Assembly (NCBI GenBank): GCA_021811325.1
Contig: JAJZPE010000004.1
Span: 1-63,376, forward strand
From: Bacillota bacterium
GTDB taxonomy: Bacteria > Bacillota > Sulfobacillia > JAJYWN01 > JAJZPE01
Length of the DNA stretch: 63,376 nt
Reading direction: 5' to 3'
Under the pieces are notes generated by a model, which searched no databases, was not told the DNA's origin, and saw only the letters and a program-made list of their open reading frames with translations. Below, piece after piece: positions 8,048 to 22,813 of the stretch. A program made the position numbers and the translations under genes. The number at the start of each line of letters is the position of its first letter. The stretch's first letter is position 1.

Positions 8048-9403
8048 ATGATTCAGTACTTTCATTCGGTTAAGCTCGACCGCGAGGCCTGCAAGGGCTG
8101 CACGAACTGCATCAAGCGGTGCCCGACCGAGGCCATCCGCGTCCGGGAAGGCAAGGCCGTCATCCTCGAGGAGCGCTGCGTCGACTGCGGCGAGTGCATC
8201 CGCATTTGCCCGAATCACGCCAAGTCGGCCATCACCGACCCGTTCCAGCGGTTGGAGGACTTCGAGTACCGGGTGGCCCTCCCGGCGCCGTCATTCTATG
8301 GGCAGTTCAAGCCGGACGTGCCCCCGGAGAGCTTCCTCCAAGCCTTACTGGAGCTCGGTTTCGACGATGTCTACGAGGTGCCGTACGCGGCCGAGGCCGT
8401 CTCCCTAGCCATCCGCCGCTACCTGACCGAGCACCCCGAGCGGCGTCCGCTCATCTCGTCGGCCTGCCCGGCGGTCGTCCGCCTGATGCAAGTCCGCTTC
8501 CCGGCCCTCCTCGACCAGGTCATCCCGGTCGAGTCGCCGATGGAGGTCGCCGCCCACCTGGCCAAGGAGAAGGCGGTCAGGGAACGCGGGCTGGACCGGG
8601 CCAAGGTCGGGGCCTTCTTCATCACCCCTTGCGCGGCCAAAGTCACCGCGGCCAAGCAGCCGGTGGGGAACAACGAATCGAACGTCGACGGCGTGCTCTC
8701 AATGTCGGCCGTCTGTGGCGAAGTCCTGAAGCTCCTGGGGTCCTCGCGGCGCAACCGCGGTCCGCTCTCGAAGGCCGGCGGCATCGGCATCGGCTGGGGC
8801 CGAGCGGGCGGCGAGAACGTGGCCATCGGCCAGGGCTCGCTCCTGGCCGTCGACGGTATCCACAGCGTCATCGGCGTCCTCGAGGAAGTGGAGAAGGGCA
8901 AGCTGCGCGGGGTCGATTACCTCGAGGCCCAGGCGTGTATCGGCGGGTGCATCGGCGGCCCGCTGGCCATCGAGAACCCCTTCGTCGCCAGGGTGCGGAT
9001 GAAGAACCTCTCCGAGATCTCTGAGAAGCAGGGCCTACAGGTGGACGCCGCGGAAGTGGCCCGACTCTATGCGGGCGGGCTCTTTACCATGAAGAAGCAA
9101 GTCGAGCCGCGCCCGGTGATGCAGCTCGACCGGGACGTCGCCCGGGCCATCTCGATGGTCGAGGCCCTCGAGAAGACGGTGGCCGAACTCCCCGGTCTCG
9201 ACTGCGGCTCCTGCGGTTCACCGAGCTGCCGGACCCTGGCCGAGGACATCGTCCGCGGCGTGGCCTTCGAGACGGATTGCGTCTTCAAACTGCGCGACCG
9301 GGTCCAGGTCCTGGCGCAAGAAGTGCTGGAGTTGGCCCGCAAAGTGCCCCCGGCGATGGGGCAGAAGGGCCCCGGGGCCGGGCGCGAGGGGCAAGACGGC
9401 TAG
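8048..9403 (+). CDS. Group D-like (HydS/Hfs-type) putative sensory [FeFe]-hydrogenase protein
   Basis: N-terminal 2x[4Fe-4S]; H-cluster-like motifs SSACP, TPCAAK, EAQACIGGCIGG; C-terminal LPGLDCGSCGSPSC FeS domain. Confidence 0.75.
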   Translation: MIQYFHSVKLDREACKGCTNCIKRCPTEAIRVREGKAVILEERCVDCGECIRICPNHAKSAITDPFQRLEDFEYRVALPAPSFYGQFKPDVPPESFLQALLELGFDDVYEVPYAAEAVSLAIRRYLTEHPERRPLISSACPAVVRLMQVRFPALLDQVIPVESPMEVAAHLAKEKAVRERGLDRAKVGAFFITPCAAKVTAAKQPVGNNESNVDGVLSMSAVCGEVLKLLGSSRRNRGPLSKAGGIGIGWGRAGGENVAIGQGSLLAVDGIHSVIGVLEEVEKGKLRGVDYLEAQACIGGCIGGPLAIENPFVARVRMKNLSEISEKQGLQVDAAEVARLYAGGLFTMKKQVEPRPVMQLDRDVARAISMVEALEKTVAELPGLDCGSCGSPSCRTLAEDIVRGVAFETDCVFKLRDRVQVLAQEVLELARKVPPAMGQKGPGAGREGQDG

Positions 9404-9436
9404 TGGCCAGGACGGTACGGAGAGGAGCGATCGGTC

Positions 9437-9778
9437 TTGCGGCTTGAGGAGATCGCCCGGCGGCTCGGTCTCGAGGCGGCCGTGGCGGGCAAAGGGATGG
9501 CGGCGGAGGTCACCGGTGGTTACTGCTCGGACCTCCTGAGCGACGTGATGGCCAACGCCAAGGAGGGCTACGTCTGGGTGACCATCCAGACCCACCAGAA
9601 CGTGGTCGCCGTGGCCGGCCTGACGTCGGTGGCCGGGGTCGTCATCGCCGGCGGGCACCGGCCGGACGAGGAGACCATCGCCCGCGCCGGCCACGAAGGG
9701 GTGACCATCCTGCTCACCCCGATGAGCGGCTTCGAGGTCGCCGGCCGGGTCCACGCCCTCTTGTCCCAGACTTCATGA
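9437..9778 (+). CDS. DRTGG-domain protein
   Basis: GGYCSDLLSDVMA..WVTIQTHQNVVAVA motif. Confidence 0.75.
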   Translation: MRLEEIARRLGLEAAVAGKGMAAEVTGGYCSDLLSDVMANAKEGYVWVTIQTHQNVVAVAGLTSVAGVVIAGGHRPDEETIARAGHEGVTILLTPMSGFEVAGRVHALLSQTS

Positions 9779-9781
9779 AGC

Positions 9782-10525
9782 ATGGCCCATCTCTACTCAG
9801 CGGACCTGCACCTTCACACCGGTCTGTCACCGTGCGCCGACGATGACGCGTCGCCCCTGGCCGTGGTCGGCCGGGCCCGGCAACGAGGCCTGGAGGTCAT
9901 CGCCGTGACCGACCACAACAGCTGCGAGAACGCGGCGGCCGCGGTGGCCGCCGGGGAGCGGCTCGGGGTCACCGTCTGGCCGGGGATGGAGCTGCAGACG
10001 CGCGAAGAGGTCCATCTCGTCTGCATCTTCGCCGGCCTCAAGGCGGCCCTGGACTTCCAGGGGTTCGTCTATGACCGCCTGCCCAAGCTGCCGAACCGGC
10101 CAGAGAAGCTCGGCCGCCAGGTCATCTACGACGAGGCCGGGAGACCGGCGGGGGAGTGCCCGAAACTCCTCCTGGCCTCCTGCGAGGTCGGACTGGAGGA
10201 GGCCTTCCGGCGGGTGACCGCGGCCGGGGGGCTGTGTTACCCGGCCCACGTCGACCGCAGGGCCTTCGGCCTGATCGGGGTCCTCGGGCCCTTCCCGCCG
10301 GAGGCCCCCTTCCCGGCCTACGAGGTCTCGCGCGGGACGCCGGTGGACCGTGTCCGGCGCGACTGCCCCTGGATCCCTCCCGGAGCGATCGTGGTTTCCT
10401 CGGACGCCCACCGTCTCGAGGAGATTGAGAGCGGCAGGACCCTGTTGGAGATGGAACGACCGACCCCGGCCGAGTTCCTGGCCGCGCTCGAAGGACGTGT
10501 CGGACGAAAGGTGGTGGTCCGCTGA
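9782..10525 (+). CDS. PHP-domain phosphoesterase
   Basis: DLHLHT.LSPC, AVTDHN, PGMEL..EEVH, PAHVDR and SSDAH metal-binding motifs. Confidence 0.85.
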   Translation: MAHLYSADLHLHTGLSPCADDDASPLAVVGRARQRGLEVIAVTDHNSCENAAAAVAAGERLGVTVWPGMELQTREEVHLVCIFAGLKAALDFQGFVYDRLPKLPNRPEKLGRQVIYDEAGRPAGECPKLLLASCEVGLEEAFRRVTAAGGLCYPAHVDRRAFGLIGVLGPFPPEAPFPAYEVSRGTPVDRVRRDCPWIPPGAIVVSSDAHRLEEIESGRTLLEMERPTPAEFLAALEGRVGRKVVVR

Positions 10526-10586
10526 AGCGTAACGCCGATGATCGGAGCCGCGCCAAGTTGCCTGAAAGGAGGAACCACCGAAAACC

Positions 10587-11066
10587 ATGAGCCTCACCTG
10601 TGACTGCCTCGATGCCAAGTACCAGGAGCTGGACCAGATCCTGAACCAGTACAACGGGCAGAAAGAGGCCCTGATCACCGTCCTCCACAAGGCCCAGGAG
10701 CTGTTCGGTTACCTGCCGCAGGACGTGCAGATCAAGGCCGCCGACGCGCTGAGCGTGCCCCTTAGCGAGGTTTACGGGGTCATCACCTTCTATGCTCTTT
10801 TCTCCACCAAGCCCAAAGGGAAGTACAAGATCGCCGCCTGCAAAGGCACGGCTTGCTATGTCCGGGGTTCCGAGCGGGTCCTCGAGCGCATCCAGAAGGA
10901 GCTTGGGGTCAAGGCCGGCGACACCACGCCAGACGCCAAGTTCTCCCTCGAAGTCGTGCGTTGCCTCGGGGCCTGCGGCCTGGGACCGGTCATGATGGTC
11001 AATGACGATGTCCATGCCCGGCTCAAGCCCGATAAGATCCCGGGGGTCCTGAGCCGGTACCAATAA
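10587..11066 (+). CDS. hydC: HydC/HndA (NuoE-like 2Fe-2S) subunit, module 1
   Basis: V.TFY..F, CKGTAC..GS, CLGACGLGPVMMVN. Confidence 0.85.
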   Translation: MSLTCDCLDAKYQELDQILNQYNGQKEALITVLHKAQELFGYLPQDVQIKAADALSVPLSEVYGVITFYALFSTKPKGKYKIAACKGTACYVRGSERVLERIQKELGVKAGDTTPDAKFSLEVVRCLGACGLGPVMMVNDDVHARLKPDKIPGVLSRYQ

Positions 11067-11102
11067 GCCCCCGTTCCGGGGGCCGGGAAAAAGGCCACGA
11101 CC

Positions 11103-11648
11103 ATGCGTGAGCTCGCCCTCCACATCCTGGACCTCCTCCAGAACTCAGCCGAGGCCGGCGCCCTCCGGGTCGAACTCGGCGTCGAGGAAGATCCGGAGAA
11201 CGACATCCTCCGCATCAGCGTCGGCGACGACGGGCGGGGGATGGATGAAGCGACGGTCCGGCGGGTCCTCGACCCGTTCTATACGACCCGCAAGACGAGA
11301 CACGTCGGATTGGGGTTGCCTCTTCTGGCGGCGGCCGCCAGGCGGTGCGGCGGCAAAGTAGAAATAGAGTCGGCTCCGGGGGTGGGGACCAAGGTCTCCG
11401 CCGACTTCCGGCGCTCCAACATCGACCGCGCCCCCCTAGGGGACCTCCCGCAGACCCTGGCCATCTTCCTGGCCGGTCACCCGGGATTAAGGCTGGTCTA
11501 CCGGCACCGGGTCGGTCCGCGGGACCTGACCTTCGACAGCGACGAGGTCAGCGCGCGGTTGGGGGCGGTCGGCTTCGACCACCCGCTGGTCGCCGACTGG
11601 GTTAAGGGGTACTTGTCCGAAGGTTTGCTGAACTTGCAAAAGGGGTGA
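11103..11648 (+). CDS. Histidine-kinase-like ATPase (HATPase_c only)
   Basis: LHILDLLQNS, DDGRGM, DPFYTT, GLGLP, G.GT; commonly embedded in hnd/hyd operons. Confidence 0.8.
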   Translation: MRELALHILDLLQNSAEAGALRVELGVEEDPENDILRISVGDDGRGMDEATVRRVLDPFYTTRKTRHVGLGLPLLAAAARRCGGKVEIESAPGVGTKVSADFRRSNIDRAPLGDLPQTLAIFLAGHPGLRLVYRHRVGPRDLTFDSDEVSARLGAVGFDHPLVADWVKGYLSEGLLNLQKG

Positions 11649-12016
11649 GCCATTTGAAATCCCTGGACGAACTGGAGAAGATCCGGCAGCGGGCTCTGCA
11701 AGAGACCCGTGTCCGGCAGTCCGGCCAGAAGACGCAGGTCGTGGTGGGCATGGGGACGTGCGGCATCGCCGCCGGCGCCCGTGAGACCATGGCCGCCATC
11801 CTGGCTGAACTAGGTAAGCGGAACCTCACCGAGGTGATGGTCACCCAGACCGGCTGCATCGGCCTCTGCGACAGAGAACCTCTGGTGGACGTGATCAAAC
11901 CCGGCCAGGCCAAGGTCACCTACGCCCGCGTCGACGCCGAGAAAGCCAGGATGATTGTCGCCCAGCACATCATCAACGACCAGGTCATCGGGGAATGGGC
12001 CATCGCCACTAGATGA
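11645..12016 (+). CDS. HydD/HndB thioredoxin-like (2Fe-2S) ferredoxin, module 1
   Basis: VGMGTCGIAAGAR..TGCIGLCDREP. Confidence 0.8.
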   Translation: MSHLKSLDELEKIRQRALQETRVRQSGQKTQVVVGMGTCGIAAGARETMAAILAELGKRNLTEVMVTQTGCIGLCDREPLVDVIKPGQAKVTYARVDAEKARMIVAQHIINDQVIGEWAIATR

Positions 12017-12030
12017 AGGAGGGTCGCTGA

Positions 12031-15000
12031 ATGGAACTCTATCGCTCGCACGTCCTGGTCTGTGCCGGCGCCGGTTGCGTCTCGTCGGGCTGCAAGGCCG
12101 TCGAGGACGCCCTCGTGGCCGAGGTTAAGAAGCTCGGGCTCGAGAAGGAAGTCCGGATCGTCGAGACCGGCTGCATGGGCCCGTGCGACCTCGGCCCGGT
12201 GATCGTGGTCTATCCCGAGGGCGTCTTCTACAAGAAGGTCAAACCGCAGGACGCCGTGGAGATAGCCAACGAGCACCTGCTCAAGGGCCGTCTTGTCGAG
12301 CACTTGACCTACAAGCTCCCGGGGACGGATGAGTCCATCCCGTCCTATGCGGACATCGCCTTTTTCAAGCAGCAGAACCGCATCGCCCTAAGGAATTGCG
12401 GCCTCATCGACCCCCTGAACATCGAGGAGGCCATCGCCCGTGACGCCTACGCCGCCCTGGGCAAGGTCCTGACCAAGATGACCGCGGCTGAGGTCATCGA
12501 GACGGTCAAGCGGTCCGGGCTGCGCGGCCGCGGCGGCGGCGGGTTCCCGACGGGCACCAAGTGGGACTTCGCGGCCAAGGCCAAGGGCAGCCCGAAGTAC
12601 GTCGTCTGCAACGCCGACGAGGGTGACCCAGGCGCCTTCATGGACCGCAGCGTCATGGAGGGCGACCCGCACTCGGTCATCGAGGCCATGGCCATCGGCG
12701 GCTACGCCATCGGCGCCAACCAGGGCTACGTCTACATCCGGGCCGAGTACCCGCTGGCCGTCGAGCGCCTCACCCACGCCATCAAGCAGGCCCGCCAATA
12801 CGGGCTCCTGGGCAAGAGCATCTTCGGCTCCGGCTTTGACTTCGACCTCGACATCCGGGTGGGCGCCGGCGCCTTCGTCTGCGGCGAGGAGACCGCCCTG
12901 CTGACCTCGATCGAGGGCCGGCGCGGCGAGCCCCGGCCGCGGCCGCCCTTCCCGGCCAACGCCGGGCTCTTCGGCCGGCCGACGGTCATCAACAACGTTG
13001 AGACCTGGGCCTGCATCAGCCCGATCATCCTCAAGGGGGCCGACTGGTTCGCGGCCATCGGGACCGAGAAGTCCAAGGGGACCAAGGTCTTCGCCCTGGC
13101 CGGCAAGATCGTCAACACCGGTCTGGTCGAGGTGCCGATGGGCACCGCCCTCGGGGAGATCATCTTCGACATCGGCGGCGGCATCCCCAACCACAAGAAA
13201 TTCAAGGCCGCCCAGACCGGCGGCCCGTCCGGCGGGTGCATCCCGACCGAGTACCTGAACACGCCGGTCGACTACGATACCCTGACCGCCCTCGGGACGA
13301 TCATGGGGTCCGGCGGCCTGATCATCATGGACGAGGACACCTGCATGGTCGACCTGGCCAAGTTCTTCCTGGAGTTCGTCCAGGACGAGTCGTGCGGCAA
13401 GTGCACCCCGTGCCGCATCGGGACCAAGCGGATGCTGGAGATCCTCCAGCGGATCACCCGCGGCGAGGGCCGGGAGGGCGACATCGAGCTGCTCATCGAG
13501 CTGTCCAACGAGATCAAGAGCTCGGCCCTCTGCGGCCTCGGCCAGACGGCGCCGAACCCGGTCCTCTCGACCATCCGCTACTTCCGCCACGAGTATGAGC
13601 AGCACATCCGGGAGAAGAAGTGCGCCGCCTCGGTTTGCGCGATGCTCTTCAACTCCCCGTGCCAGAACACGTGTCCGGCCAACGTCGACGTACCGGTGTA
13701 CATCGACCACATCCGCAACAAGCGCTTCGCCCAGGCCTATCAGACGGTGAAGGACGAGAACCCGTTCCCGGCCATCTGCGGCCGCGTCTGCAACCATCCG
13801 TGCGAGTCCAAGTGCCGCCGGGCGCAGATCGACCAGGCCCTGGCCATCCGCGCCCTGAAGCGGTTCGCCGGGGACTGGGCCCTCAAGAACAACGGGCACC
13901 TGCCGGCGGGCAAGGGCGGCCTCAAAAAGGACGATAAGGTAGCCGTCGTCGGCTCCGGCCCGGCCGGCCTCACCGCCGCGTACTACCTGGCCCGCAAGGG
14001 CTACCCGGTGACCGTCTTCGAGGCCCTGCCGGTGGCCGGTGGGATGATGGCCGTCGGCATCCCTGAGTACCGCCTGCCCAAGAAGATGCTCCGGGCGGAG
14101 ATCGAGAGCGTCGAGAGGATGGGCGTGGAGATCAAGACCGGCGTCCGCGTCGGCCAGGACATCACCCTCGACGGCCTCAAGAAGAAAGGCTACAAGGCCA
14201 TCTTCCTGGCCGTCGGGGCCCACAAGAGCCAGCGCCTGGAGATTCCGGGCGAGGACCTCATGGGCGTCATCCACGCCACCGACTTCCTGCGCCGGGTCAA
14301 CCTTGGTGAGGACCCCAAGCTGAAAGGAAAGAAAGTGGCCATTGTCGGCGGCGGCAACGCGGCCATCGACTCGGCCCGGGTCGCCCTACGCCTCGGGGCC
14401 TCGGCGGTGAAGGTCGTCTACCGTCGCCGTCGCGACGAGATGCCGGCCCTCCGTGAAGAGATCGAGGACGCCGAGCACGAGGGGGTCGAGTTCCTCTTCC
14501 TGGCCGCCCCGAAGAGCGTCGCCGGGAAGAACGGCAAGGCCATCGGGTTGGAGTGCCTGCAGATGAAGCTCGGCGAGTTCGACCGCAGCGGGCGGCGTCG
14601 CCCGGTGGCCGTCGAGGGCTCGGAGTTCATCGTCGAGGCCGACGTGGTCATCCCGGCGGTCAGCCAGGCGCCCGAGGTCGAGGCCCTCAACAACGGGACC
14701 AAGTTGAACCCCAATCGCGACGGCACGCTCGCCGTCGACGGCAACCTGGCGACCCCAGTCCCGGGCCTCTTCGCCGGCGGCGACTGCGTCACCGGTCCGG
14801 ACACCGTCATTGGGGCCGTCGCAGCCGGCAAGAAGGCCGCCGCGGCCATCGACAAGTACCTCGGCGGCGACGGCGACGTTGTCGACCTTCAAACCGTCGT
14901 CCGCGAGCTGTCCGCTGAAATCGTCGAAGAGGAACGGCCGCGGGCCGAGATGCCGGTCGTCCCGGTCAAGGACCGCTGCAAGGGCTTCGCCGAGGTCGAG

Positions 15001-15069
15001 CTCGGCTTCGACGAGAAGGCGGCCGTCTCGGAAGCCTCACGTTGCCTCCGTTGCGACGTGAAGGAGTAA
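12031..15069 (+). CDS. HydB/HndC (NuoF-like) fused to a GltD-like FAD/NADPH oxidoreductase
   Basis: GLRGRGGGGFP, NADEGDPGAFMDR, CGEET, ESCGKCTPC, then PCQNTCP..CGRVCNHPCE, VGSGPAG, VGGGNAAID, YRRRRDEMPA, FAGGD; 1012 aa in one frame. Confidence 0.85.
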   Translation: MELYRSHVLVCAGAGCVSSGCKAVEDALVAEVKKLGLEKEVRIVETGCMGPCDLGPVIVVYPEGVFYKKVKPQDAVEIANEHLLKGRLVEHLTYKLPGTDESIPSYADIAFFKQQNRIALRNCGLIDPLNIEEAIARDAYAALGKVLTKMTAAEVIETVKRSGLRGRGGGGFPTGTKWDFAAKAKGSPKYVVCNADEGDPGAFMDRSVMEGDPHSVIEAMAIGGYAIGANQGYVYIRAEYPLAVERLTHAIKQARQYGLLGKSIFGSGFDFDLDIRVGAGAFVCGEETALLTSIEGRRGEPRPRPPFPANAGLFGRPTVINNVETWACISPIILKGADWFAAIGTEKSKGTKVFALAGKIVNTGLVEVPMGTALGEIIFDIGGGIPNHKKFKAAQTGGPSGGCIPTEYLNTPVDYDTLTALGTIMGSGGLIIMDEDTCMVDLAKFFLEFVQDESCGKCTPCRIGTKRMLEILQRITRGEGREGDIELLIELSNEIKSSALCGLGQTAPNPVLSTIRYFRHEYEQHIREKKCAASVCAMLFNSPCQNTCPANVDVPVYIDHIRNKRFAQAYQTVKDENPFPAICGRVCNHPCESKCRRAQIDQALAIRALKRFAGDWALKNNGHLPAGKGGLKKDDKVAVVGSGPAGLTAAYYLARKGYPVTVFEALPVAGGMMAVGIPEYRLPKKMLRAEIESVERMGVEIKTGVRVGQDITLDGLKKKGYKAIFLAVGAHKSQRLEIPGEDLMGVIHATDFLRRVNLGEDPKLKGKKVAIVGGGNAAIDSARVALRLGASAVKVVYRRRRDEMPALREEIEDAEHEGVEFLFLAAPKSVAGKNGKAIGLECLQMKLGEFDRSGRRRPVAVEGSEFIVEADVVIPAVSQAPEVEALNNGTKLNPNRDGTLAVDGNLATPVPGLFAGGDCVTGPDTVIGAVAAGKKAAAAIDKYLGGDGDVVDLQTVVRELSAEIVEEERPRAEMPVVPVKDRCKGFAEVELGFDEKAAVSEASRCLRCDVKE

Positions 15070-15087
15070 AAAGGGGGTGTGACGCTA

Positions 15088-16827
15088 GTGGCAACCGTGA
15101 CCTTGACCATCGATAACCAAAAGGTCGAAATCGAAGAAAGCGCCACCATCCTCGACGCCGCAAAGAAGGCCGGCATCAAGATCCCGACCCTCTGCTACTT
15201 GGAGGACATCAACGAGATCGGCGCCTGCCGGGTCTGCGTCGTCGAGGTCAGGGGGGCCAAGGCCCTCCAGGCGGCATGCGTCGCCCCCGTGGCGAACGGG
15301 ATGATCGTCAGCACCAACTCCCCGGCCGTGCGGTCGTCCCGGCGCCTGACGGTCGAGCTGCTCCTGTCCAACCATCCGACCGACTGCCTGGTCTGCCCGC
15401 GCAACCTCAACTGCGAACTGCAGGCCCTGGCCGAGAACCTCGGCATCAGGGAGGTCCGCTTCGAAGGGGCCAAGCCGTCCTGGCCGGTGGACGAATCGAC
15501 CCCGTCGATCGTCCGTAACCCGGCCAAGTGCGTCCTCTGCCGGCGCTGCGTGGCCGTTTGCGAGAAGGTCCAGGGGGTTAAGGCCATCGCCCCCATCGAG
15601 CGCGGCTTCGATACCGTCATCGCCCCGGCCTTCGGCCACGAGATGATCGACGCGGCCTGCGCCCTGTGCGGTCAGTGCACGCTGGTCTGCCCGACCGCGG
15701 CCCTGACCGAGCACGACTCCACCGCCCAGACCTGGGCGGCCCTCGCCGACCCAAAGAAGCACGTCATCGTTCAGACCGCCCCGGCCACCCGCGTGGCCGT
15801 CGGCGAGATGTTCGGCTACGAGCCGGGGACCATCGTCACCGGCAAGATGGTCGCCGCCCTGCGGCGCCTGGGCTTCGACCGGGTCTTCGACACCGACTTC
15901 ACGGCCGACCTGACGATCATGGAGGAAGGCACGGAGCTGCTCGAGCGGGTCAGCCACGGCGGCGTGCTGCCGATGATCACCTCCTGCAGCCCGGGCTGGA
16001 TCAAGTTCATCGAACACTACTACCCGCACCTCCTCCCGCACCTGTCGACCTGCAAATCGCCGCAGCAGATGTTCGGGGCCCTGGCCAAGACGTACTACGC
16101 CGAGAAGGCCGGGATCAACCCCAAAGACATCGTCTCCGTCTCGATCATGCCGTGCACGGCCAAGAAGTTCGAGCTGACCCGGCCGGAGATGGAGGATAGC
16201 GGGTTCAGGGACGTGGACATCGTCCTGACCACCCGCGAGCTCGGCCGGATGTTCAAGCAGGCCGGCCTGGACTTCACCAACCTGCCCGAGGAACCATACG
16301 ACGACCCGTTCGGGATCACCACCGGCGCGGCCGTCATCTTCGGGGCCACCGGCGGCGTCATGGAGGCCGCCCTGCGCACGGCGTACGAGGTGAAGACCGG
16401 AAAGACCCTCGGCAACATCAACTTCACGGGGGTCCGCGGTCTCGAAGGGGTCAAAGAAGCGACCGTCCCCGTGGACGGGATAGACGTCAAGGTGGCGGTG
16501 GCCCACGGCCTGGGCAACGCCCGCAAGCTCCTGGATAAGCTGGCGGCGGGCCAGGCCGACCACCACTTCATCGAGATCATGTGCTGCCCCGGCGGGTGCA
16601 TCGGCGGCGGCGGGCAACCCATCCCGACCAATACGGAGATCCGCCAGAAGCGAATCAACGGCATCTACGCGGCCGACGAGCGGATGGCCATCAGAAAATC
16701 CCACGAAAACCCGGCCGTCCAGGCGCTCTACAAGGAGTTCCTGGGCCAACCGCTGGGTCACAAGTCACACGAACTCCTCCACACTCACTACACGCCACGT
16801 GGGAAGTACCCCAAGACGGACAAGTGA
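15088..16827 (+). CDS. hydA: [FeFe]-hydrogenase catalytic subunit HydA (group A3), module 1
   Basis: TSCSPGW, MPCTAKKFE, EIMCCPGGCIGGGGQP; 2Fe-2S, His-ligated 4Fe-4S and 2x4Fe-4S F-clusters. Confidence 0.92.
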   Translation: MATVTLTIDNQKVEIEESATILDAAKKAGIKIPTLCYLEDINEIGACRVCVVEVRGAKALQAACVAPVANGMIVSTNSPAVRSSRRLTVELLLSNHPTDCLVCPRNLNCELQALAENLGIREVRFEGAKPSWPVDESTPSIVRNPAKCVLCRRCVAVCEKVQGVKAIAPIERGFDTVIAPAFGHEMIDAACALCGQCTLVCPTAALTEHDSTAQTWAALADPKKHVIVQTAPATRVAVGEMFGYEPGTIVTGKMVAALRRLGFDRVFDTDFTADLTIMEEGTELLERVSHGGVLPMITSCSPGWIKFIEHYYPHLLPHLSTCKSPQQMFGALAKTYYAEKAGINPKDIVSVSIMPCTAKKFELTRPEMEDSGFRDVDIVLTTRELGRMFKQAGLDFTNLPEEPYDDPFGITTGAAVIFGATGGVMEAALRTAYEVKTGKTLGNINFTGVRGLEGVKEATVPVDGIDVKVAVAHGLGNARKLLDKLAAGQADHHFIEIMCCPGGCIGGGGQPIPTNTEIRQKRINGIYAADERMAIRKSHENPAVQALYKEFLGQPLGHKSHELLHTHYTPRGKYPKTDK

Positions 16828-16946
16828 CAGACGCCCGTCCCGCTCAGCAACGGAAAGGGCGATGCCAATCCGGCGCCGCCCCGTACAAACATGGCGGGGC
16901 CGCCCCGGGGCTGACCAGTAGCGACCCATCCGAAGGAGGTGCGAGG

Positions 16947-17315
16947 GTGAAATCCCTCAAGGAATTGGATCAGATCCGGGAAAAAGCCCTGGAGATGACC
17001 CGGGTCAGGCAAGGACAGGGCTTGGTCAAGATCGTCGTCGGCCTGGGTACGTGCGGAATCGCCGCGGGGGCCCGCGACGTCATGGCGGCCATCCTGGATG
17101 AACTCAGCAAGCGCGGCCTGACCTCGGTCACCGTGTCGCAAACGGGTTGCGTCGGACTGTGCGACCAGGAACCGCTGGTTGATGTGATCAAGGCCGGAGA
17201 GCCGCGGGTCACCTACGGTCGCGTCACGCCCGAGGTAGCCAGGAAGATCATCGCCCAGCACGTCATCAACCACCAAGTGCTGGGTGAGTGGGTCATCGCG
17301 ACCAAAGAAGCCTGA
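16947..17315 (+). CDS. HydD/HndB (2Fe-2S) ferredoxin, module 2
   Basis: GGAGGT RBS, GTG start; VGLGTCGIAAGAR..TGCVGLCDQEP; paralogue of 11645-12016. Confidence 0.8.
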   Translation: MKSLKELDQIREKALEMTRVRQGQGLVKIVVGLGTCGIAAGARDVMAAILDELSKRGLTSVTVSQTGCVGLCDQEPLVDVIKAGEPRVTYGRVTPEVARKIIAQHVINHQVLGEWVIATKEA

Positions 17316-17329
17316 AGGAGGGTTGACCC

Positions 17330-17821
17330 GTGGCAGTGGCAACCAAGAAACCAAGCGTCCTCTCCAAGAGCGCCCTGGCCAAGGTCGACCAGATCATCGC
17401 CAGGCACAAGGACCAGCCGGGGCCCCTGCTGCCGGTGCTTCACGCCCTGCAGGCCGAATTCAAGTACCTGCCGGAGGAAGCACTGGTTAGAGTGGCCATC
17501 GGTCTGGACATCCCCCTCTCCAAGATCTACGGCGTGGCCAGCTTCTACACCCTCTTCAACTTGCGCCCCAAGGCGGAGCACGTCATCCGCGCCTGCGAGA
17601 GCGCTCCCTGCCACGTGCGCGGGGCCAAAGAGGTCATCGAGGCGCTGGAAAACGCCCTGGGCGTGAAGGTCGGCGAGGACACCCGAGACGGCCGCTTCAC
17701 CCTCGAGCTGTCGAGCTGCATCGGCGTCTGCGGCGTGGCCCCGGCGATCATGATCGACGATGAGGTCTTCGGCAACCTCACGCCGGACATGGTCCCAGGC
17801 ATCCTCGCCCGCTTCAACTGA
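17330..17821 (+). CDS. hydC: HydC/NuoE-like subunit, module 2
   Basis: VASFY, CESAPCHVRG, CIGVCGVAP. Confidence 0.85.
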   Translation: MAVATKKPSVLSKSALAKVDQIIARHKDQPGPLLPVLHALQAEFKYLPEEALVRVAIGLDIPLSKIYGVASFYTLFNLRPKAEHVIRACESAPCHVRGAKEVIEALENALGVKVGEDTRDGRFTLELSSCIGVCGVAPAIMIDDEVFGNLTPDMVPGILARFN

Positions 17822-17837
17822 AAGGGGGAGGAGACAG

Positions 17838-19481
17838 ATGGAGTTCTATCGTTCTCACGTCCTGGTCTGTGCCGGGACCAACTGCTCCCTCAAGGGCAAC
17901 CGAGCCGTCCGGGAAGCGCTGGTCCAGGAAGTCGCCCGCAGGAAGCTGGATAGAGAGGTCAAGGTCGTCGAGACCGGCTGCTTCGGTCTTTGCGAGCAAG
18001 GGCCGACGATCGTCATCTACCCCGAAGGGGTGCTCTACTGCCAGACCACGGTGGCCGACATCCCCGAAATCGTCGAGACCCACCTCCTCAAGGGGCGCCT
18101 GGTACAACGGTTGCTCTACAAGGAGCCCGTGGCCACCAAGCCCGTACAGACGGCGCCCGAGCTTGATTACTTCAAGAGGCAGGTCCGCGTGGTCCTCAGG
18201 AACTGCGGCCTGATCAACCCCGAGGTCGTCGAGGAGTACCTCGCCCAGGGCGGGTACCAGGCCCTCGGTAAGGCCCTGACGACGATGAGCCCCGACGAGG
18301 TCATCGCTACCATCAAGAACGCGAAGCTCCGCGGGCGTGGCGGGGCCGGCTTCCCGACCGGTCTCAAGTGGGAGTTCGCCCGCAAGGCGGCCGGGTCCCG
18401 GAAGTACATCGTCGGCAACGCCGACGAGGGCGAGCCGGGCACCTTCAAGGACCGCCTCATCCTCGAGGGCGACCCCCACAGCGTCCTGGAGGGCATGGCC
18501 ATCGCCGGCTACGCCGTCGGGGCCGACTACGGCTACATCTATATCCGTGGGGAGTACACCCTCTCCATCAAGCGCCTCAAGCTGGCCATCGAGCAGGCCC
18601 GCAAGCTCGGACTGCTGGGCCGGGACATCTTCGGCTCCGGCTTCGACTTCGACGTCGAGATCCGCACCGGCGCCGGAGCCTATGTCTGCGGCGAAGAGAC
18701 CGCCCTCTTCGAGTCGCTCGAAGGCGGCCGCGGCGAGCCGCGGGTCAAGCCGCCGTACCCGACCGACGCCGGCCTCTTCGGTCAACCGACCTCCATCAAC
18801 AACGTCGAGACCCTGGCCAACGTGGCCCCGATCATCAGCCGCGGGGCCGACTGGTTCCGCAGCCTCGGCACCGAACGGACCCCGGGGACCAAGGTCTTCA
18901 CCCTCACCGGCGACATCGTCAACGAGGGTCTCATCGAGGTGCCCATGGGGATCACCCTCCGCGAGGTCATCTACGACATCGGCGGCGGGACCAAGGACGG
19001 AAAGACCTTCAAGATGGCCCAGACCGGCGGGACCTCAGGCGGCTGCCTGCCCCAGGAACTCCTGGATGTGCCGATGGACTACGACAACCTGGCCGCGGCC
19101 GGATCGGCCCTCGGTTCTGGCGCGCTGCTGATCATGGACGATACCCACTGCATCGTCGACGTGGCCAAGTGCTTCGCCCGGTTCTTCGAACACGAGTCGT
19201 GCGGCAAGTGCGTCCCCTGCCGAGAGGGGACCATGCGCCTGTATCAACTGGTCGACAAGATCACCCGCGGGGAGGCCGACGAGGGGACCATCCCGCTCAT
19301 CACCGCCTTGGCCGAGATGATGTACAAGTCGCCCCTCTGCCCGCTCGGGCAGACGGCCCCCCTACCCATCATGTCCACCCTCAAATACTTCCGGGACGAG
19401 TACGACGCCCACATCAACGAAAAGCGCTGCCCGACCGGGACCTGCAAGGCCATCGCGGCCAGGGTCCAGGTCGCGGACTAG
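17838..19481 (+). CDS. hydB: HydB/NuoF-like subunit, module 2 (short form)
   Basis: LRGRGGAGFP, NADEGEPGTFKDR, CGEET, ESCGKCVPC; ends after CPTGTC with no C-terminal 2x[4Fe-4S] domain. Confidence 0.88.
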   Translation: MEFYRSHVLVCAGTNCSLKGNRAVREALVQEVARRKLDREVKVVETGCFGLCEQGPTIVIYPEGVLYCQTTVADIPEIVETHLLKGRLVQRLLYKEPVATKPVQTAPELDYFKRQVRVVLRNCGLINPEVVEEYLAQGGYQALGKALTTMSPDEVIATIKNAKLRGRGGAGFPTGLKWEFARKAAGSRKYIVGNADEGEPGTFKDRLILEGDPHSVLEGMAIAGYAVGADYGYIYIRGEYTLSIKRLKLAIEQARKLGLLGRDIFGSGFDFDVEIRTGAGAYVCGEETALFESLEGGRGEPRVKPPYPTDAGLFGQPTSINNVETLANVAPIISRGADWFRSLGTERTPGTKVFTLTGDIVNEGLIEVPMGITLREVIYDIGGGTKDGKTFKMAQTGGTSGGCLPQELLDVPMDYDNLAAAGSALGSGALLIMDDTHCIVDVAKCFARFFEHESCGKCVPCREGTMRLYQLVDKITRGEADEGTIPLITALAEMMYKSPLCPLGQTAPLPIMSTLKYFRDEYDAHINEKRCPTGTCKAIAARVQVAD

Positions 19482-19505
19482 CCGCCGGAAAGGGAGGGAA
19501 AAGTG

Positions 19506-21230: not shown

Positions 21231-21264
21231 AACGAGGGTCGTCCTCCCCCGGGGATGACGGAGC

Positions 21265-21297
21265 GGGGCCACGCCGCCTGCCGACGTGGCCCCCTTT
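21265..21297 (+). terminator. Hairpin after hydA2, possible weak terminator
   Basis: GGGGCCACG-N11-CGTGGCCCC followed by CTTT. Confidence 0.4.
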
Positions 21298-21340
21298 CCC
21301 CGGGGGTGAAGGGATGGCCGCGCCAGGGGGTGGACATGAA

Positions 21341-22813
<1,473 letters not shown>

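What the first reader, a model, noticed from the sequence alone, without database searches (positions are those of the whole stretch)
12031..15069. HydB whose ferredoxin-like tail is replaced by a whole GltD/NfnB-like NADPH flavodomain
Seen: one 1012-aa ORF. The NuoF part has the DPGAFMDR signature. After HIREKKCAASVC the usual 2x[4Fe-4S] tail is absent and a GltD-like unit follows, with two FeS clusters, an FAD site, GGGNAA and YRR. Known: the C-terminal 2x[4Fe-4S] domain of bifurcating HydB is implicated in ferredoxin reduction, and GxGxxA plus Arg-Arg marks NADP(H) preference. Inference: a [FeFe]-hydrogenase with both an NADH site and an NADPH site on one chain, possibly coupling H2, NADH and NADPH without free ferredoxin. 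It is reminiscent of Stn/Nso-type transhydrogenases but attached to a hydrogenase.
Basis: partly seen in the sequence, partly recalled or inferred. Interest (0 to 1): 0.72.

Follow-up and report, generated by a model that had tools for sequence, protein, structure and literature searches.

The report
Hydrogenase subunit with NADPH module swapped in
One subunit of an iron-iron hydrogenase has lost the small iron-sulfur domain that normally passes electrons to ferredoxin and carries a complete NADPH-binding flavin module in its place; the design occurs in at least ten prokaryotic phyla, and we found no report of a purified or assayed example.

Summary
ORF 12031-15069 encodes a 1012-aa protein. 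Its N-half is a complete HydB/BfuB: an N-terminal [2Fe-2S] domain, the FMN/NADH site, the NuoF [4Fe-4S] cluster and the Zn-hinge His/Cys. Homology to canonical 597-aa HydB ends at about residue 540. There the 2x[4Fe-4S] ferredoxin domain is replaced by an FAD/NADP(H) module.

The module is the Stn/Nfn-Bfu type, not the NfnB type. A Lys (K610), not a Glu, sits at the fourth ligand position of the proximal cluster. The module is also circularly permuted: the last 40 residues match the N-terminus of NfnB and supply two invariant Cys.

The gene sits in a tightly spaced hydC-HATPase-hndB-like-hydB-hydA run. The same fusion occurs in at least 70 species-level genomes of at least ten phyla. There it is paired with [FeFe] hydrogenase, [NiFe] hydrogenase or formate-dehydrogenase-like partners. 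Trees show the C-terminal module was exchanged repeatedly.

One 2018 genome paper noted the architecture. The literature we could search reports no biochemistry or structure, and the Bfu census excluded this class by definition.

The likely function is a hydrogenase linked to NAD(H) and NADP(H) without a ferredoxin domain. Whether the two nucleotide sites are energetically coupled is unresolved. Verdict: a new variant of a known kind, of moderately high interest.

The parts
12031..15069 (+). hydB-gltD fusion gene, 1012 aa (HydB/BfuB core plus Stn-type NADP(H)/FAD cassette)
   Evidence: ORF list and translation; Pfam and NCBIfam hits; gene called in the public record; AF2 model with pLDDT 87.6 and pTM 0.84
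12031..12315 (+). N-terminal thioredoxin-like [2Fe-2S] domain (aa 1-95); Cys 11, 16, 48 and 52 invariant
   Evidence: Pfam PF01257 at 6-80; invariant Cys in the 59-sequence alignment A1
12505..13017 (+). NuoF FMN/NADH-binding domain (aa 159-329) with GLRGRGGGGFP 163-173, K177, DPGAFMDR 199-206 and E286/E287
   Evidence: [quoted passage not shown]
13351..13605 (+). NuoF four-helix bundle with the [4Fe-4S] cluster (B1/N3; C455, C458, C461, C501)
   Evidence: PF10589, E 6e-36; Cys invariant
13603..13638 (+). Zn-hinge segment HIREKKCAASVC (H525, C531, C536; probably with C438), the last stretch shared with canonical HydB and the junction of the domain swap
   Evidence: [quoted passage not shown]
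13654..13890 (+). Cassette cluster domain (aa 542-620, Fer4_20). Inferred proximal [4Fe-4S] ligands: C548, C587, C591 and K610. Inferred distal ligands: C544 and C595, plus C1005 and C1008 from the tail
   Evidence: PF14691. Gap-free alignment to Csac NfnA 102-201 maps its A7 ligands C108, C147, C151 and K170 (PMC11829005) onto C548, C587, C591 and K610. All are invariant
13936..14865 (+). FAD and NAD(P)H Rossmann domains (aa 636-945): GSGPAG 641-646, R681, GGGNAA 773-778, YRRRR 797-801
   Evidence: PF07992, E 9e-34; alignments to NADPH-binding StnC, Csac NfnA, Tm NfnB and Pfu NfnL; invariance
14938..15066 (+). C-terminal tail (aa 970-1012) homologous to the N-terminus of NfnB/NfnL; carries RCLRC (C1005, C1008) and marks the circular permutation
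   Evidence: Second HMMER domains: query tail versus 4ylf_B residues 14-43 and 5jca_L residues 8-48; same position as StnC and Csac NfnA ~530-567; R1004, C1005, C1008 and D1009 invariant; tail pLDDT 88-94
10587..11066 (+). hydC (NuoE-like [2Fe-2S] subunit, 159 aa)
   Evidence: PF01257, E 3e-53; NuoE/HoxE NCBIfam families; present upstream of the fusion in nearly all related loci
11103..11648 (+). Histidine-kinase-like ATPase gene inside the gene run (181 aa)
   Evidence: PF02518; conserved at this position in fused and canonical gene runs
11645..12016 (+). Small thioredoxin-like [2Fe-2S] protein (HydD/HndB-like, 123 aa)
   Evidence: Weak PF01257 hit and 2Fe-2S ferredoxin NCBIfam hits; conserved in related loci
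15079..16827 (+). hydA, catalytic [FeFe]-hydrogenase subunit (582 aa) with H-cluster motifs TSCSP, MPCTAK and EIMCCPGGCIGG
   Evidence: PF02906, E 5e-104; NCBIfam NF040763, 929 bits, above cutoff; motifs; 9-nt gap after the fusion gene
8036..9403 (+). HydS-like putative sensory [FeFe]-hydrogenase homologue, upstream regulatory partner
   Evidence: PF02906 plus PF04060; none of my three H-cluster motif patterns matched; conserved upstream in fused and canonical loci
9782..10525 (+). PHP-domain protein between hydS and hydC
   Evidence: PF02811 and PF13263; conserved position

Best explanation
The gene encodes the flavoprotein subunit of a soluble multimeric [FeFe]-hydrogenase made of HydA, HydB-fusion and HydC, probably with the small HndB-like [2Fe-2S] protein.

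Shown:
- The N-half is a full bifurcating-type HydB/BfuB core, with the N-terminal [2Fe-2S] domain, the FMN/NADH site, the [4Fe-4S] B1 cluster and the Zn hinge.
- Directly after the hinge, the usual ferredoxin-interacting 2x[4Fe-4S] domain is replaced by the NADP(H)-FAD cassette known from StnC and Nfn-Bfu NfnA. The cassette has two [4Fe-4S] sites. The proximal one has 3 Cys plus Lys-610. The distal one is completed by the permuted C-terminal tail.

Inferred:
- The complex has three substrate sites, for H2, NAD(H) and NADP(H), and no dedicated ferredoxin domain.
- The most likely working model places the cassette where the B3/B4 domain sat. Electrons leaving the FMN/HydC [2Fe-2S] branch would then end on FAD and NADP+ instead of ferredoxin.
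- The enzyme would catalyse 2 H2 + NAD+ + NADP+ <-> NADH + NADPH + 2 H+. At low H2 pressure this is a real bifurcation, using approximate in vivo potentials from my own knowledge: NAD about -280 mV as the high-potential branch and NADPH about -370 to -380 mV as the low-potential branch. In reverse it is a confurcation that lets NADPH help NADH make H2.
- The FAD would act as a 2e/1e converter as in Stn, not as a bifurcating flavin.
For: Domain content and motifs.

The swap lies exactly at the hinge where the canonical C-terminal domain begins. That domain carries B3/B4 and forms the ferredoxin site in Tsi NfnABC and in HydABC models (PMC12018979; PMC10021017).

The cassette is the Stn/Nfn-Bfu type: 9bov_A 438 bits, 9n5u_A 390 bits and 8oh5_C 369 bits over residues 542-1010. 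The Lys ligand and all Cys ligands are conserved and invariant in 59 homologues.

The NADH-site residues K177 and E286/E287 are invariant, as are the cassette motifs GGGNxA and YR (R799 in at least 90%).

The other Bfu-core hallmarks are kept throughout the family: HydC, the N-terminal [2Fe-2S] domain and the Zn hinge.

The same fused subunit is combined with HydA, with NuoG-like + [NiFe] subunits, and with NuoG + molybdopterin Fdh-like subunits in other phyla. This mirrors the modular range of ferredoxin-type Bfu enzymes.

AF2 gives one confident two-half model (pTM 0.84), and no solved chain covers both halves.
Against: No activity, cofactor or structural data exist for any member in the searched literature.

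Model coordinates could not be read, so no cluster-to-cluster distance supports the proposed wiring.

FMN-less proteins made of the NuoF [4Fe-4S] helix bundle plus the same cassette exist, and one sits next to a HydA (L035 13244-16860). This suggests the cassette can connect through the B1 cluster, giving an uncoupled enzyme.

NADPH rather than NADH preference of the cassette is inferred from motifs only.

Under standard conditions both nucleotide reductions by H2 are exergonic, so coupling is not thermodynamically required.
Confidence: 0.5

Rival explanations
1. Uncoupled dual-nucleotide hydrogenase. The cassette feeds or drains the NuoF [4Fe-4S] (B1) cluster directly. NADH (via FMN) and NADPH (via FAD) would then each exchange electrons independently with the H-cluster. 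There would be no bifurcation, and the enzyme would also act as an ungated NADPH:NAD+ transhydrogenase.
For: Proteins of about 640 aa keep the SCGKCxPCR helix bundle and the cassette but have no FMN domain. Most also lack the Zn-hinge Cys pair. One is the only partner gene beside a HydA in L035, so the cassette must be able to reach HydA without FMN or HydC. The window's second module has a HydB truncated at the same junction, and a group-3b-like NAD(P)-linked [NiFe] hydrogenase lies upstream. This suggests an organism that relies on nucleotide-linked rather than ferredoxin-linked hydrogenases.
Against: An ungated link between the NADH and NADPH pools would collapse the potential difference cells maintain between them. 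The fused class keeps the Zn hinge, HydC and the N-terminal [2Fe-2S] domain. The characterised non-bifurcating HydB homologues lack the additional clusters (B2-B5) of bifurcating BfuB (Schut 2022, PMC9304861); that they specifically lack the N-terminal [2Fe-2S] domain is from my own knowledge.
Confidence: 0.27
2. Still ferredoxin-dependent. Ferredoxin would dock on the cassette's distal [4Fe-4S] (as on NfnB/NfnL) or between HydC and the cassette. The enzyme would merge HydABC and Nfn chemistry into a four-substrate system (H2, NAD, NADP, ferredoxin), possibly with the FAD as a second bifurcating flavin.
For: In NfnAB the path from the bifurcating FAD to ferredoxin runs through the two [4Fe-4S] clusters of NfnB (Stn paper introduction). 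The fold matches NfnL at TM 0.81. R681, the equivalent of NfnB R201 and StnC R239, is invariant.
Against: The proximal cluster has the Stn-type Lys instead of the Nfn-type Glu. In StnC the same cassette was shown not to bifurcate (PMC10482914). No NfnA/NfnS-like partner lies in the gene run. The ferredoxin-like domain that forms the ferredoxin site in Tsi NfnABC is absent.
Confidence: 0.15
3. Glutamate-synthase-linked hydrogenase (the HydDB 'group A2' reading). The GltD-like part would hand electrons to a glutamate synthase large subunit or another acceptor enzyme rather than bind NADPH as a substrate of the hydrogenase.
For: The domain belongs to the GltD family. The neighbour-domain rule used for A2 (PRK12771/PRK12814; bioRxiv 10.64898/2026.06.24.733704) would fire here. 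In a Thermoplasmata locus the fusion is followed by a Glu_synthase-domain protein (L033). The Vallitalea paper speculated on a glutamate link.
Against: No gltB-like gene lies in the hydrogenase gene run of the window or of the Bacillota loci. The cassette is closest to Stn/Nfn-Bfu cassettes, which act as plain NADPH:FeS oxidoreductase modules.
Confidence: 0.04

Closest known systems
Electron-bifurcating [FeFe]-hydrogenase HydABC (A. woodii 7q4v, T. kivui 8a6t, T. maritima 7p5h), HydB subunit
   Same: Residues 1-540 align end to end (817 bits to 7q4v_B; Foldseek TM 0.82-0.93 on the target). This covers the N-terminal [2Fe-2S] domain, the FMN/NADH site, the [4Fe-4S] bundle and the Zn-hinge His/Cys. 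The gene order with hydC and hydA is the same, and the HydA L1 motif TSCSP matches A. woodii HydA1.
   Different: The C-terminal 2x[4Fe-4S] domain (B3/B4) is absent and is replaced by a ~470-aa FAD/NADP(H) cassette. The literature calls that domain essential for bifurcation and the ferredoxin site.
StnABC / NfnABC (Nfn-Bfu) transhydrogenases (8oh5, 9bov, 9n5u)
   Same: The cassette form is the same. It starts at PCxxxCP and ends at EAxRCLxC (permuted relative to NfnB). It has a Lys ligand on the proximal cluster and the same FAD and NADPH motifs. Foldseek identity to the NfnA/StnC chains is 41-47%. The BfuB- and BfuC-type partner subunits are also shared.
   Different: In Stn/Nfn-Bfu the cassette is inserted in the NuoG-like A subunit and replaces the catalytic input, and BfuB keeps its ferredoxin domain. 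Here the cassette is on the B subunit in place of the ferredoxin domain, and the A subunit is a true H-cluster hydrogenase.
NfnAB / NfnSL (4ylf, 5jca), NfnB/NfnL subunit
   Same: Same fold (TM 0.81 on the target), the same two [4Fe-4S] + FAD + NADPH layout, and YRR and GxGxxA motifs.
   Different: The order is circularly permuted. Lys replaces Glu as the fourth ligand of the proximal cluster. There is no NfnA/NfnS partner.
Non-bifurcating NADH-dependent [FeFe]-hydrogenases (Syntrophomonas wolfei, Syntrophus aciditrophicus HydAB(C))
   Same: HydB lacks the B3/B4 ferredoxin-type domain, and the enzyme is nucleotide-linked without ferredoxin (PMC7311640 abstract; PMC9499530).
   Different: Those HydB simply lack the extra domains. 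The fusion keeps the N-terminal [2Fe-2S] domain and the Zn hinge and adds a second flavin/nucleotide site. The window's own module-2 HydB (17760-19481) is closer to the truncated type.
HydDB group A2 [FeFe]-hydrogenases with a GltD-like partner (PRK12771/PRK12814-type proteins)
   Same: The partner proteins share the helix-bundle + cassette region (query 410-1008 at 40-45% identity). NCBIfam PRK12771 scores above its cutoff on residues 495-1008.
   Different: A2 partners have no FMN/NADH domain and usually no hinge Cys pair, and the one A2-like module examined (L035) shows no HydC or NuoF-FMN gene. The function of A2 is itself only predicted (own knowledge; the HydDB paper was not read).
Vallitalea guaymasensis L81 hydrogenase peg.3894-3896 (PMC6163223)
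   Same: [quoted passage not shown]
   Different: This is a genome annotation remark only. It gives no analysis of cassette type, distribution or function, and the sequence was not compared here.

Membership tests
Bfu family BfuB as defined by Schut et al. 2022 (PMC9304861) | NuoF-type FMN-binding domain (IPR011538) and NuoF [4Fe-4S] domain (IPR019575) | tested here: met
   PF01512 (E 2e-47) and PF10589 (E 6e-36); FMN/NADH loop and all four cluster Cys invariant
Bfu family BfuB as defined by Schut et al. 2022 (PMC9304861) | SLBB domain (IPR019554) | tested here: inconclusive
   PF10531 is not reported for the window protein at E <= 0.001. It is precomputed for many close homologues, and the modelled strands 351-369 fit the fold
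Bfu family BfuB as defined by Schut et al. 2022 (PMC9304861) | C-terminal 4Fe-4S ferredoxin-type domain (IPR017896) carrying clusters B3/B4 | tested here: not met
   No ferredoxin-type Fer4 Pfam hit. The junction alignment shows both CxxCxxCxxxC(P) motifs are replaced. The protein therefore falls outside that census by definition
Bfu family BfuB as defined by Schut et al. 2022 (PMC9304861) | N-terminal [2Fe-2S] domain, the hinge metal site (Zn, or '[2Fe-2S]' in one model), and a BfuC partner | tested here: met
   C11, C16, C48, C52, H525, C531 and C536 invariant; hydC directly upstream
Stn / Nfn-Bfu transhydrogenase (StnABC, NfnABC) | NfnL-like cassette with 3 Cys + Lys on the proximal [4Fe-4S], FAD and NADPH sites | tested here: met
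   C548, C587, C591 and K610 map onto Csac C108, C147, C151 and K170. All are invariant
Stn / Nfn-Bfu transhydrogenase (StnABC, NfnABC) | Cassette inserted in a NuoG-like A subunit that lacks a catalytic centre; BfuB keeps the ferredoxin domain | tested here: not met
   The cassette is on the B subunit. The A subunit is a HydA with H-cluster motifs
Stn / Nfn-Bfu transhydrogenase (StnABC, NfnABC) | NADPH-dependent reduction of NAD+ and ferredoxin | not testable with these tools
   Needs enzyme assays
NfnAB / NfnSL | NfnB/L with a Glu-ligated proximal cluster, standard N-to-C order, and an NfnA/S partner with [2Fe-2S] and a second FAD | tested here: not met
   Lys at the Glu position; the tail is permuted; no NfnA-like gene in the gene run. 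The only DHODB-FeS protein nearby belongs to the [NiFe] cluster
Multimeric group A [FeFe]-hydrogenase (HydABC / Hnd type) | Catalytic HydA with H-cluster motifs beside NuoE- and NuoF-like genes | tested here: met
   NF040763, 929 bits, above cutoff 765; motifs TSCSP, MPCTAK and ExMxCxxGCxxG; gene gaps of -4 to 36 nt
Multimeric group A [FeFe]-hydrogenase (HydABC / Hnd type) | Ferredoxin- and NAD-dependent electron bifurcation | not testable with these tools
   Needs enzyme assays. The domain regarded as required for it is missing
Non-bifurcating NADH-dependent HydAB(C) | HydB without the additional clusters of bifurcating BfuB, including the C-terminal 2x[4Fe-4S] domain | tested here: not met
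   The N-terminal [2Fe-2S] domain is present. The C-terminal domain is replaced, not just absent
HydDB group A2 (GltD-linked) [FeFe]-hydrogenase | GltD-family domain in a gene next to hydA, without a NuoF-type flavoprotein | tested here: not met
   The PRK12771 domain is present, but it is fused to a complete NuoF-type flavoprotein. By the neighbour-domain rule quoted the locus satisfies both the A2 and the A3 criteria

The most novel reading that the evidence does not exclude
The fusion may define a ferredoxin-free version of the Bfu bifurcating core. In it the FMN/[4Fe-4S]/[2Fe-2S] site would split electrons from a mid-potential donor between NAD+ (high-potential branch) and NADP+ (low-potential branch, via the hinge-mounted cassette). 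The donor would be H2 here, and H2 via [NiFe] or formate in other phyla. In reverse it would confurcate NADH + NADPH to H2. That would be a family-wide 'NADP-type Bfu core', missed by the published census because that census required a ferredoxin-type domain.
Probability: 0.3. Interest if true: 0.8.

Novelty: new variant of a known kind. Interest (0 to 1): 0.6.

Why it matters
Two things follow if the cassette really replaces the ferredoxin branch.

First, it offers a natural experiment on the disputed Bfu/HydABC mechanism. The core is the same, but the low-potential outlet ends on a hydride carrier that is easy to assay.

Second, H2 metabolism in many anaerobes would be tied directly to the NADH and NADPH pools without ferredoxin. 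The carriers include Moorella relatives, Pelotomaculum and Syntrophomonadaceae relatives, gut Oscillospiraceae and Christensenellaceae, Verrucomicrobiota, Dehalococcoidales and Thermoplasmata. This would change redox-balance models for acetogenesis, syntrophy and fermentation.

There is also a practical point. Survey pipelines that classify [FeFe]-hydrogenases by neighbouring domains will label these loci ambiguously as A2 or A3. Censuses of bifurcating enzymes that require a ferredoxin domain will miss them.

Tried and rejected
- Measuring Cys-Cys and cluster distances in the AF2 model, to decide whether the cassette sits near HydB's B1 cluster or in the former B3/B4 position. Model coordinates are not exposed to the script environment, so this was not possible.
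- Promoter and terminator scan of 9300-17900. Counts were at chance level and did not help define the operon.
- Literature searches for a characterised HydB-GltD enzyme, using HydB/GltD/fusion, BfuB+GltD, Bfu family+glutamate synthase, NuoF+glutamate synthase domain, HydB+NfnB+NADP and Moth_1883-1888. Only the Vallitalea remark turned up. Schut 2022, Losey 2020, the 'Fantastic [FeFe]-hydrogenases' review, the Hydrogenedentota paper and the syntrophic propionate review do not mention it.
- The idea that the fusion is an assembly or frameshift artefact. Rejected because of more than 120 same-length homologues and a conserved in-frame junction.
- The idea that the HydA TSCSP motif is linked to the fusion. 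Rejected because it is shared with canonical relatives and with A. woodii HydA1.
- Monophyly of fused HydB. Rejected by bootstrap NJ (0/100).
- A cassette tree. It has no bootstrap support and is star-like at the base, so it was used only as a hint.

Full report
**Observation**

The window carries an uninterrupted ORF at 12031-15069 (+), 1012 aa with an ATG start. The same gene is called in the public MAG record that holds this sequence, GCA_027327795.1, contig DAHVYF010000063.1.

Pfam places five domains in order:
- thioredoxin-like [2Fe-2S] domain, 6-80
- NuoF FMN domain, 159-329 (E 2e-47)
- NuoF [4Fe-4S] domain, 441-525 (E 6e-36)
- Fer4_20, 528-620 (E 7e-26)
- Pyr_redox_2, 636-933 (E 9e-34)

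No ferredoxin-type Fer4 family is hit.

**Where the swap is**

I extracted canonical 597-aa HydB genes from the closest non-fused relatives: Desulfofundulus, Desulfotomaculum copahuensis, Desulfovirgula and others, 70-78% identical over residues 1-540. I compared their C-termini with the fusion.
- All share '...FRxEYExHIxxKxCPAxVCxxL'.
- Canonical proteins then run into two CxxCxxCxxxC(P) motifs.
- The fused proteins run into 'SPCQNTCPxxVDVPxYI...'.
- The window's second HydB (17760-19481, 573 aa) stops a few residues after the same point.

So three alternative C-termini hang on one junction. That junction is the His/Cys segment that binds Zn at the start of the mobile C-terminal domain in solved HydABC structures (PMC9499530; PMC10021017). 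H525, C531 and C536 are invariant in 59 fused homologues. The linker 531-540 has the lowest local confidence in the AF2 model.

**What was swapped in**

Against PDB sequences, residues 1-540 match HydB/BfuB chains (7t2r_B, 7q4v_B, 8oh5_B, 9bov_B). Residues 542-1010 match best to Csac NfnA-Bfu residues 102-567 (438 bits). Next come Tsi NfnA and StnC 102-567, and only then T. maritima NfnB and P. furiosus NfnL.

Two details show that this is the Stn/Nfn-Bfu form of the module.
- The last ~40 residues ('FAEVELGFDEKAAVSEASRCLRCD') align as a separate HMMER domain to the N-terminus of NfnB (residues 14-43) and NfnL (8-48). In StnC and Csac NfnA the equivalent segment also lies after the Rossmann domains. 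The unit is therefore circularly permuted relative to NfnB/GltD. The tail supplies C1005 and C1008, both invariant.
- The gap-free alignment maps the published ligands of the Csac A7 cluster (C108, C147, C151, K170; PMC11829005) onto C548, C587, C591 and K610, all invariant. NfnB has Glu at the Lys position. In StnC this Lys is essential, and the FAD was shown not to bifurcate (PMC10482914).

The FAD motif (GSGPAG 641-646) and the NADPH-type motifs (GGGNAA 773-778, YRR 797-799) are conserved. So is the Arg equivalent to StnC R239 (R681).

On the NuoF side, the glycine loop, K177 and E286/E287 are conserved. By offset mapping, K177 and E287 correspond to the Csac NfnB residues that bind the NADH adenine ribose. 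This fits NADH at the FMN site and NADP(H) at the FAD site. That assignment is an inference from homology, not a test.

**Structure prediction**

AF2 on the 59-sequence alignment gave mean pLDDT 87.6 and pTM 0.84, with the tail at pLDDT 88-94. Foldseek against the PDB found no chain that covers both halves; the best query-normalised TM is 0.52. The N-half matches HydB/BfuB chains (target TM 0.82-0.96). The C-half matches the NfnA/StnC cassettes and NfnL (target TM 0.81). This is the main gap in the analysis.

**Context in the window**

The fusion gene lies in a tightly spaced run:
- hydC (10587-11066)
- a histidine-kinase-like ATPase gene (11103-11648)
- a small HndB-like [2Fe-2S] protein (11645-12016)
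- the fusion gene
- hydA (15079-16827)

Gaps between these genes range from -4 to 36 nt. HydA has the H-cluster motifs and scores above the NCBIfam cutoff for group A6 NADH-dependent hydrogenases.

Upstream lie a HydS-like sensory homologue and a PHP protein. Downstream lie a second HydC-HydB(short)-HydA module, aspartate ammonia-lyase and HydF. Further upstream is a four-gene sulfhydrogenase-like NAD(P)-linked [NiFe] hydrogenase cluster. None of the three hydrogenases in this island has a ferredoxin-type HydB domain.

**Distribution**

A protein search returned more than 120 full-length homologues at 63-88% identity.

A scan of one genome per species found 548 relatives. Of the 80 best loci, about 70 carry the full fusion. 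They include:
- Moorella thermoacetica DSM 21394, M. mulderi, Neomoorella, Thermanaeromonas, Candidatus Formimonas and Dehalobacterium
- Oscillospiraceae, Christensenellaceae and Victivallis
- Bacteroidota, Spirochaetes, Planctomycetes, Verrucomicrobiota and Dehalococcoidales
- Thermoplasmata and Theionarchaea

At 50% clustering, about a dozen clusters are full-length fusions. HydC precedes the fusion almost everywhere.

The downstream partner varies:
- a full HydA in Bacillota and several other phyla
- a NuoG-like protein plus [NiFe] hydrogenase subunits: in Verrucomicrobiota (L036) a small subunit and a large subunit follow, and in Balneolales (L059) the gene directly after the NuoG-like one is a [NiFe] large subunit
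- a NuoG + molybdopterin formate-dehydrogenase-like protein in Desantisbacteria and Dehalococcoidales
- a HoxU-like protein plus a Glu_synthase-domain protein in a Thermoplasmata MAG

The fused flavoprotein is thus a general module. Its range of partners resembles that of the ferredoxin-type Bfu core.

**Evolution**

A bootstrap NJ analysis of the conserved core (residues 110-530, 46 taxa, 100 replicates) gave these supports:
- The canonical Desulfotomaculia HydBs fall inside the fused clade: window + canonical, excluding the Moorella fused form, 90/100.
- L002 fused + canonical, excluding the window, 94/100.
- Monophyly of all fused forms, 0/100.
- Stn-type BfuBs encoded next to fused gene runs group with fused HydBs, 90/100.

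One MAG (Desulfovirgula) has both a fused and a canonical gene run with the same gene order (L001, L071). The C-terminal module has therefore been exchanged more than once on the same core. Sampling is biased towards relatives of the query and NJ is a simple method, so the number and direction of the swaps remain open. A cassette tree without bootstraps hints that cassettes also move between fused, Stn-type and A2-type contexts.

**How it probably works**

Shown: a complete HydB/HydC/HydA set, a second flavin/nucleotide module with all cluster ligands, and loss of the ferredoxin-type domain.

Inferred: in Bfu enzymes the low-potential electrons leave FMN through the HydC/BfuC [2Fe-2S] cluster to the B3/B4 domain, where ferredoxin binds (PMC12018979; PMC10482914). 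The cassette is attached at the hinge of that domain. The simplest reading is that NADP+ takes the place of ferredoxin: 2 H2 + NAD+ + NADP+ <-> NADH + NADPH + 2 H+.

The potentials that follow are approximate in vivo values from my own knowledge. NAD is about -280 mV and NADPH about -370 to -380 mV. H2 at 10-1000 Pa is about -300 to -355 mV. With these values the reaction is a meaningful bifurcation, or in reverse a confurcation of NADH + NADPH to H2.

I give this coupled model about 0.3. I give the broader statement, an NAD(H)- and NADP(H)-linked hydrogenase without a ferredoxin domain, about 0.5.

**Why the wiring is uncertain**

The exhaustive search also found proteins of about 640 aa that consist of the NuoF [4Fe-4S] helix bundle plus the same cassette. 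The SCGKCxPCR motif is kept, there is no FMN domain, and most have no hinge Cys pair. One of them is the only partner gene beside a HydA in L035, which is the HydDB 'A2' situation.

In such an enzyme the cassette presumably reaches HydA through the B1-like cluster. If the same geometry holds in the fusion, NADPH and NADH both connect to the H-cluster at B1 and the enzyme is an uncoupled dual-nucleotide hydrogenase (rival 1, 0.27).

A ferredoxin-dependent hybrid remains possible (0.15). The Stn-type Lys and the missing ferredoxin-like domain argue against it. A glutamate-synthase link is unlikely for this locus (0.04).

**Comparison with what is known**

The protein fails the published definition of BfuB only in the ferredoxin-type domain, which that census required (PMC9304861). 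This explains why the class is absent from it.
- It is not an Stn/Nfn-Bfu enzyme: the cassette is on the wrong subunit and the A subunit is catalytic.
- It is not NfnB: Lys replaces Glu, the order is permuted and there is no NfnA.
- It is not a Syntrophomonas-type non-bifurcating HydB: the N-terminal [2Fe-2S] domain is present and the C-terminal domain is replaced.

The architecture was noted once, for Vallitalea guaymasensis L81 (PMC6163223). A Dehalobacteriia comparative-genomics paper treats that lineage's hydrogenase clusters as ordinary HydABC/Hnd-like and does not mention a GltD-fused beta subunit. Two Dehalobacteriia loci in my scan (L023, L027) carry the fusion. I found no purified or solved member in the searchable library. 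Subscription-only papers were not covered.

**Verdict**

This is a real, conserved and widespread, but apparently uncharacterised, variant of the HydABC/Bfu hydrogenases. I rate it a new variant of a known kind, with interest 0.6.

Noticed in passing
window 17330-21230: A second hydrogenase module follows directly downstream: NuoE-like HydC (17330-17821), a 573-aa HydB and HydA2 (19503-21230). This HydB keeps the N-terminal [2Fe-2S] domain and the hinge Cys pair but stops right after it ('HINEKRCPTGTCKAIAARVQVAD'). The same tandem of a fused module plus a short-HydB module occurs in Clostridiales bacterium PH28_bin88 (L002).
   Followed up: partly
window 3251-7153: Four-gene sulfhydrogenase-like (group 3b type) NAD(P)-linked [NiFe] hydrogenase cluster. 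Its beta, gamma, delta and alpha subunits hit the ShyB/HydB, ShyC/HydG, ShyD and ShyA NCBIfam families below the equivalog cutoffs. With the two [FeFe] modules it forms a hydrogenase island without any ferredoxin-type HydB domain.
   Followed up: partly
window 15979-15993 (HydA1 aa 301-305) and 20397-20411 (HydA2 aa 299-303): Both HydA have the L1 motif TSCSP instead of the textbook TSCCP. The same 'PMITSCSPGWIKF' is present in the solved A. woodii HydA1 (7q4v_A). It occurs in 43 of 45 HydA genes with a readable motif next to fused or canonical relatives. It is a clade trait and is not linked to the fusion.
   Followed up: yes
L035 13244-16860; proteins P0171, P0179, P0185, P0195, P0203, P0219, P0243: A class of ~620-660-aa proteins made of the NuoF [4Fe-4S] helix bundle plus the same NADPH cassette. 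They have no FMN domain and mostly no hinge Cys pair. In L035 one lies directly upstream of a TSCCP-type HydA (HydDB 'A2'-like). They look like a truncated relative of the fusion and bear on how the cassette is wired.
   Followed up: partly
L036 10287-14258; L059 8973-10936; L044 6420-9122; L048 10013-12688; L033 10105-12406: In other phyla the same NuoF-cassette fusion is followed by a partner other than HydA. In Verrucomicrobiota (L036) the partner is a NuoG-like protein plus [NiFe] hydrogenase small and large subunits. In Balneolales (L059) it is a NuoG-like protein followed by a [NiFe] large subunit. In Desantisbacteria and Dehalococcoidales it is a 890-900-aa NuoG + molybdopterin formate-dehydrogenase-like protein. 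In a Thermoplasmata MAG it is a HoxU-like protein plus a Glu_synthase-domain protein.
   Followed up: partly
L027 2-2919, L030 12112-16376 (minus strand), L042 2092-6027: Stn/Nfn-Bfu-like gene runs (NuoE, NuoF, [2Fe-2S]-cassette-NuoG) lie immediately next to the fused-HydB hydrogenase gene runs. The two systems therefore co-occur rather than replace each other in these genomes. The adjacency could have favoured cassette exchange.
   Followed up: no
L001 and L071 (both from Desulfovirgula sp. MAG Tomsk_3_55_126): One genome carries two paralogous gene runs with the same order (HydS, HydC, HATPase, HydD, HydB, HydA). One has the fused HydB and one has the canonical ferredoxin-domain HydB. This is a natural pair for comparison.
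   Followed up: partly
window 8036-9403, 9782-10525, 11103-11648, 7577-8035: A regulatory set surrounds the gene run. It comprises a HydS-like protein (none of my three H-cluster motif patterns matched), a PHP-domain protein, a histidine-kinase-like ATPase gene between hydC and the HndB-like gene, and an anti-sigma-factor-like HATPase_c_2 protein. The first three are conserved at the same positions in fused and canonical loci.
   Followed up: partly
L023 and L027 (Candidatus Formimonas warabiya, Dehalobacterium sp.): The tblastn match to the fused HydB starts at query residue ~109-110, so the HydB N-terminal [2Fe-2S] domain gave no match. A separate HydD-like gene sits just upstream.
   Followed up: no
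window 22817-24040, 21380-22813 and 36713-39400: The HydF maturase gene lies after an aspartate ammonia-lyase gene. The lyase match begins at residue ~126 of the mechanical ORF 20999-22813, so its true start is later than the ORF start. A cyanophycin-synthetase-like gene lies further downstream. HydE and HydG were not looked for.
   Followed up: no
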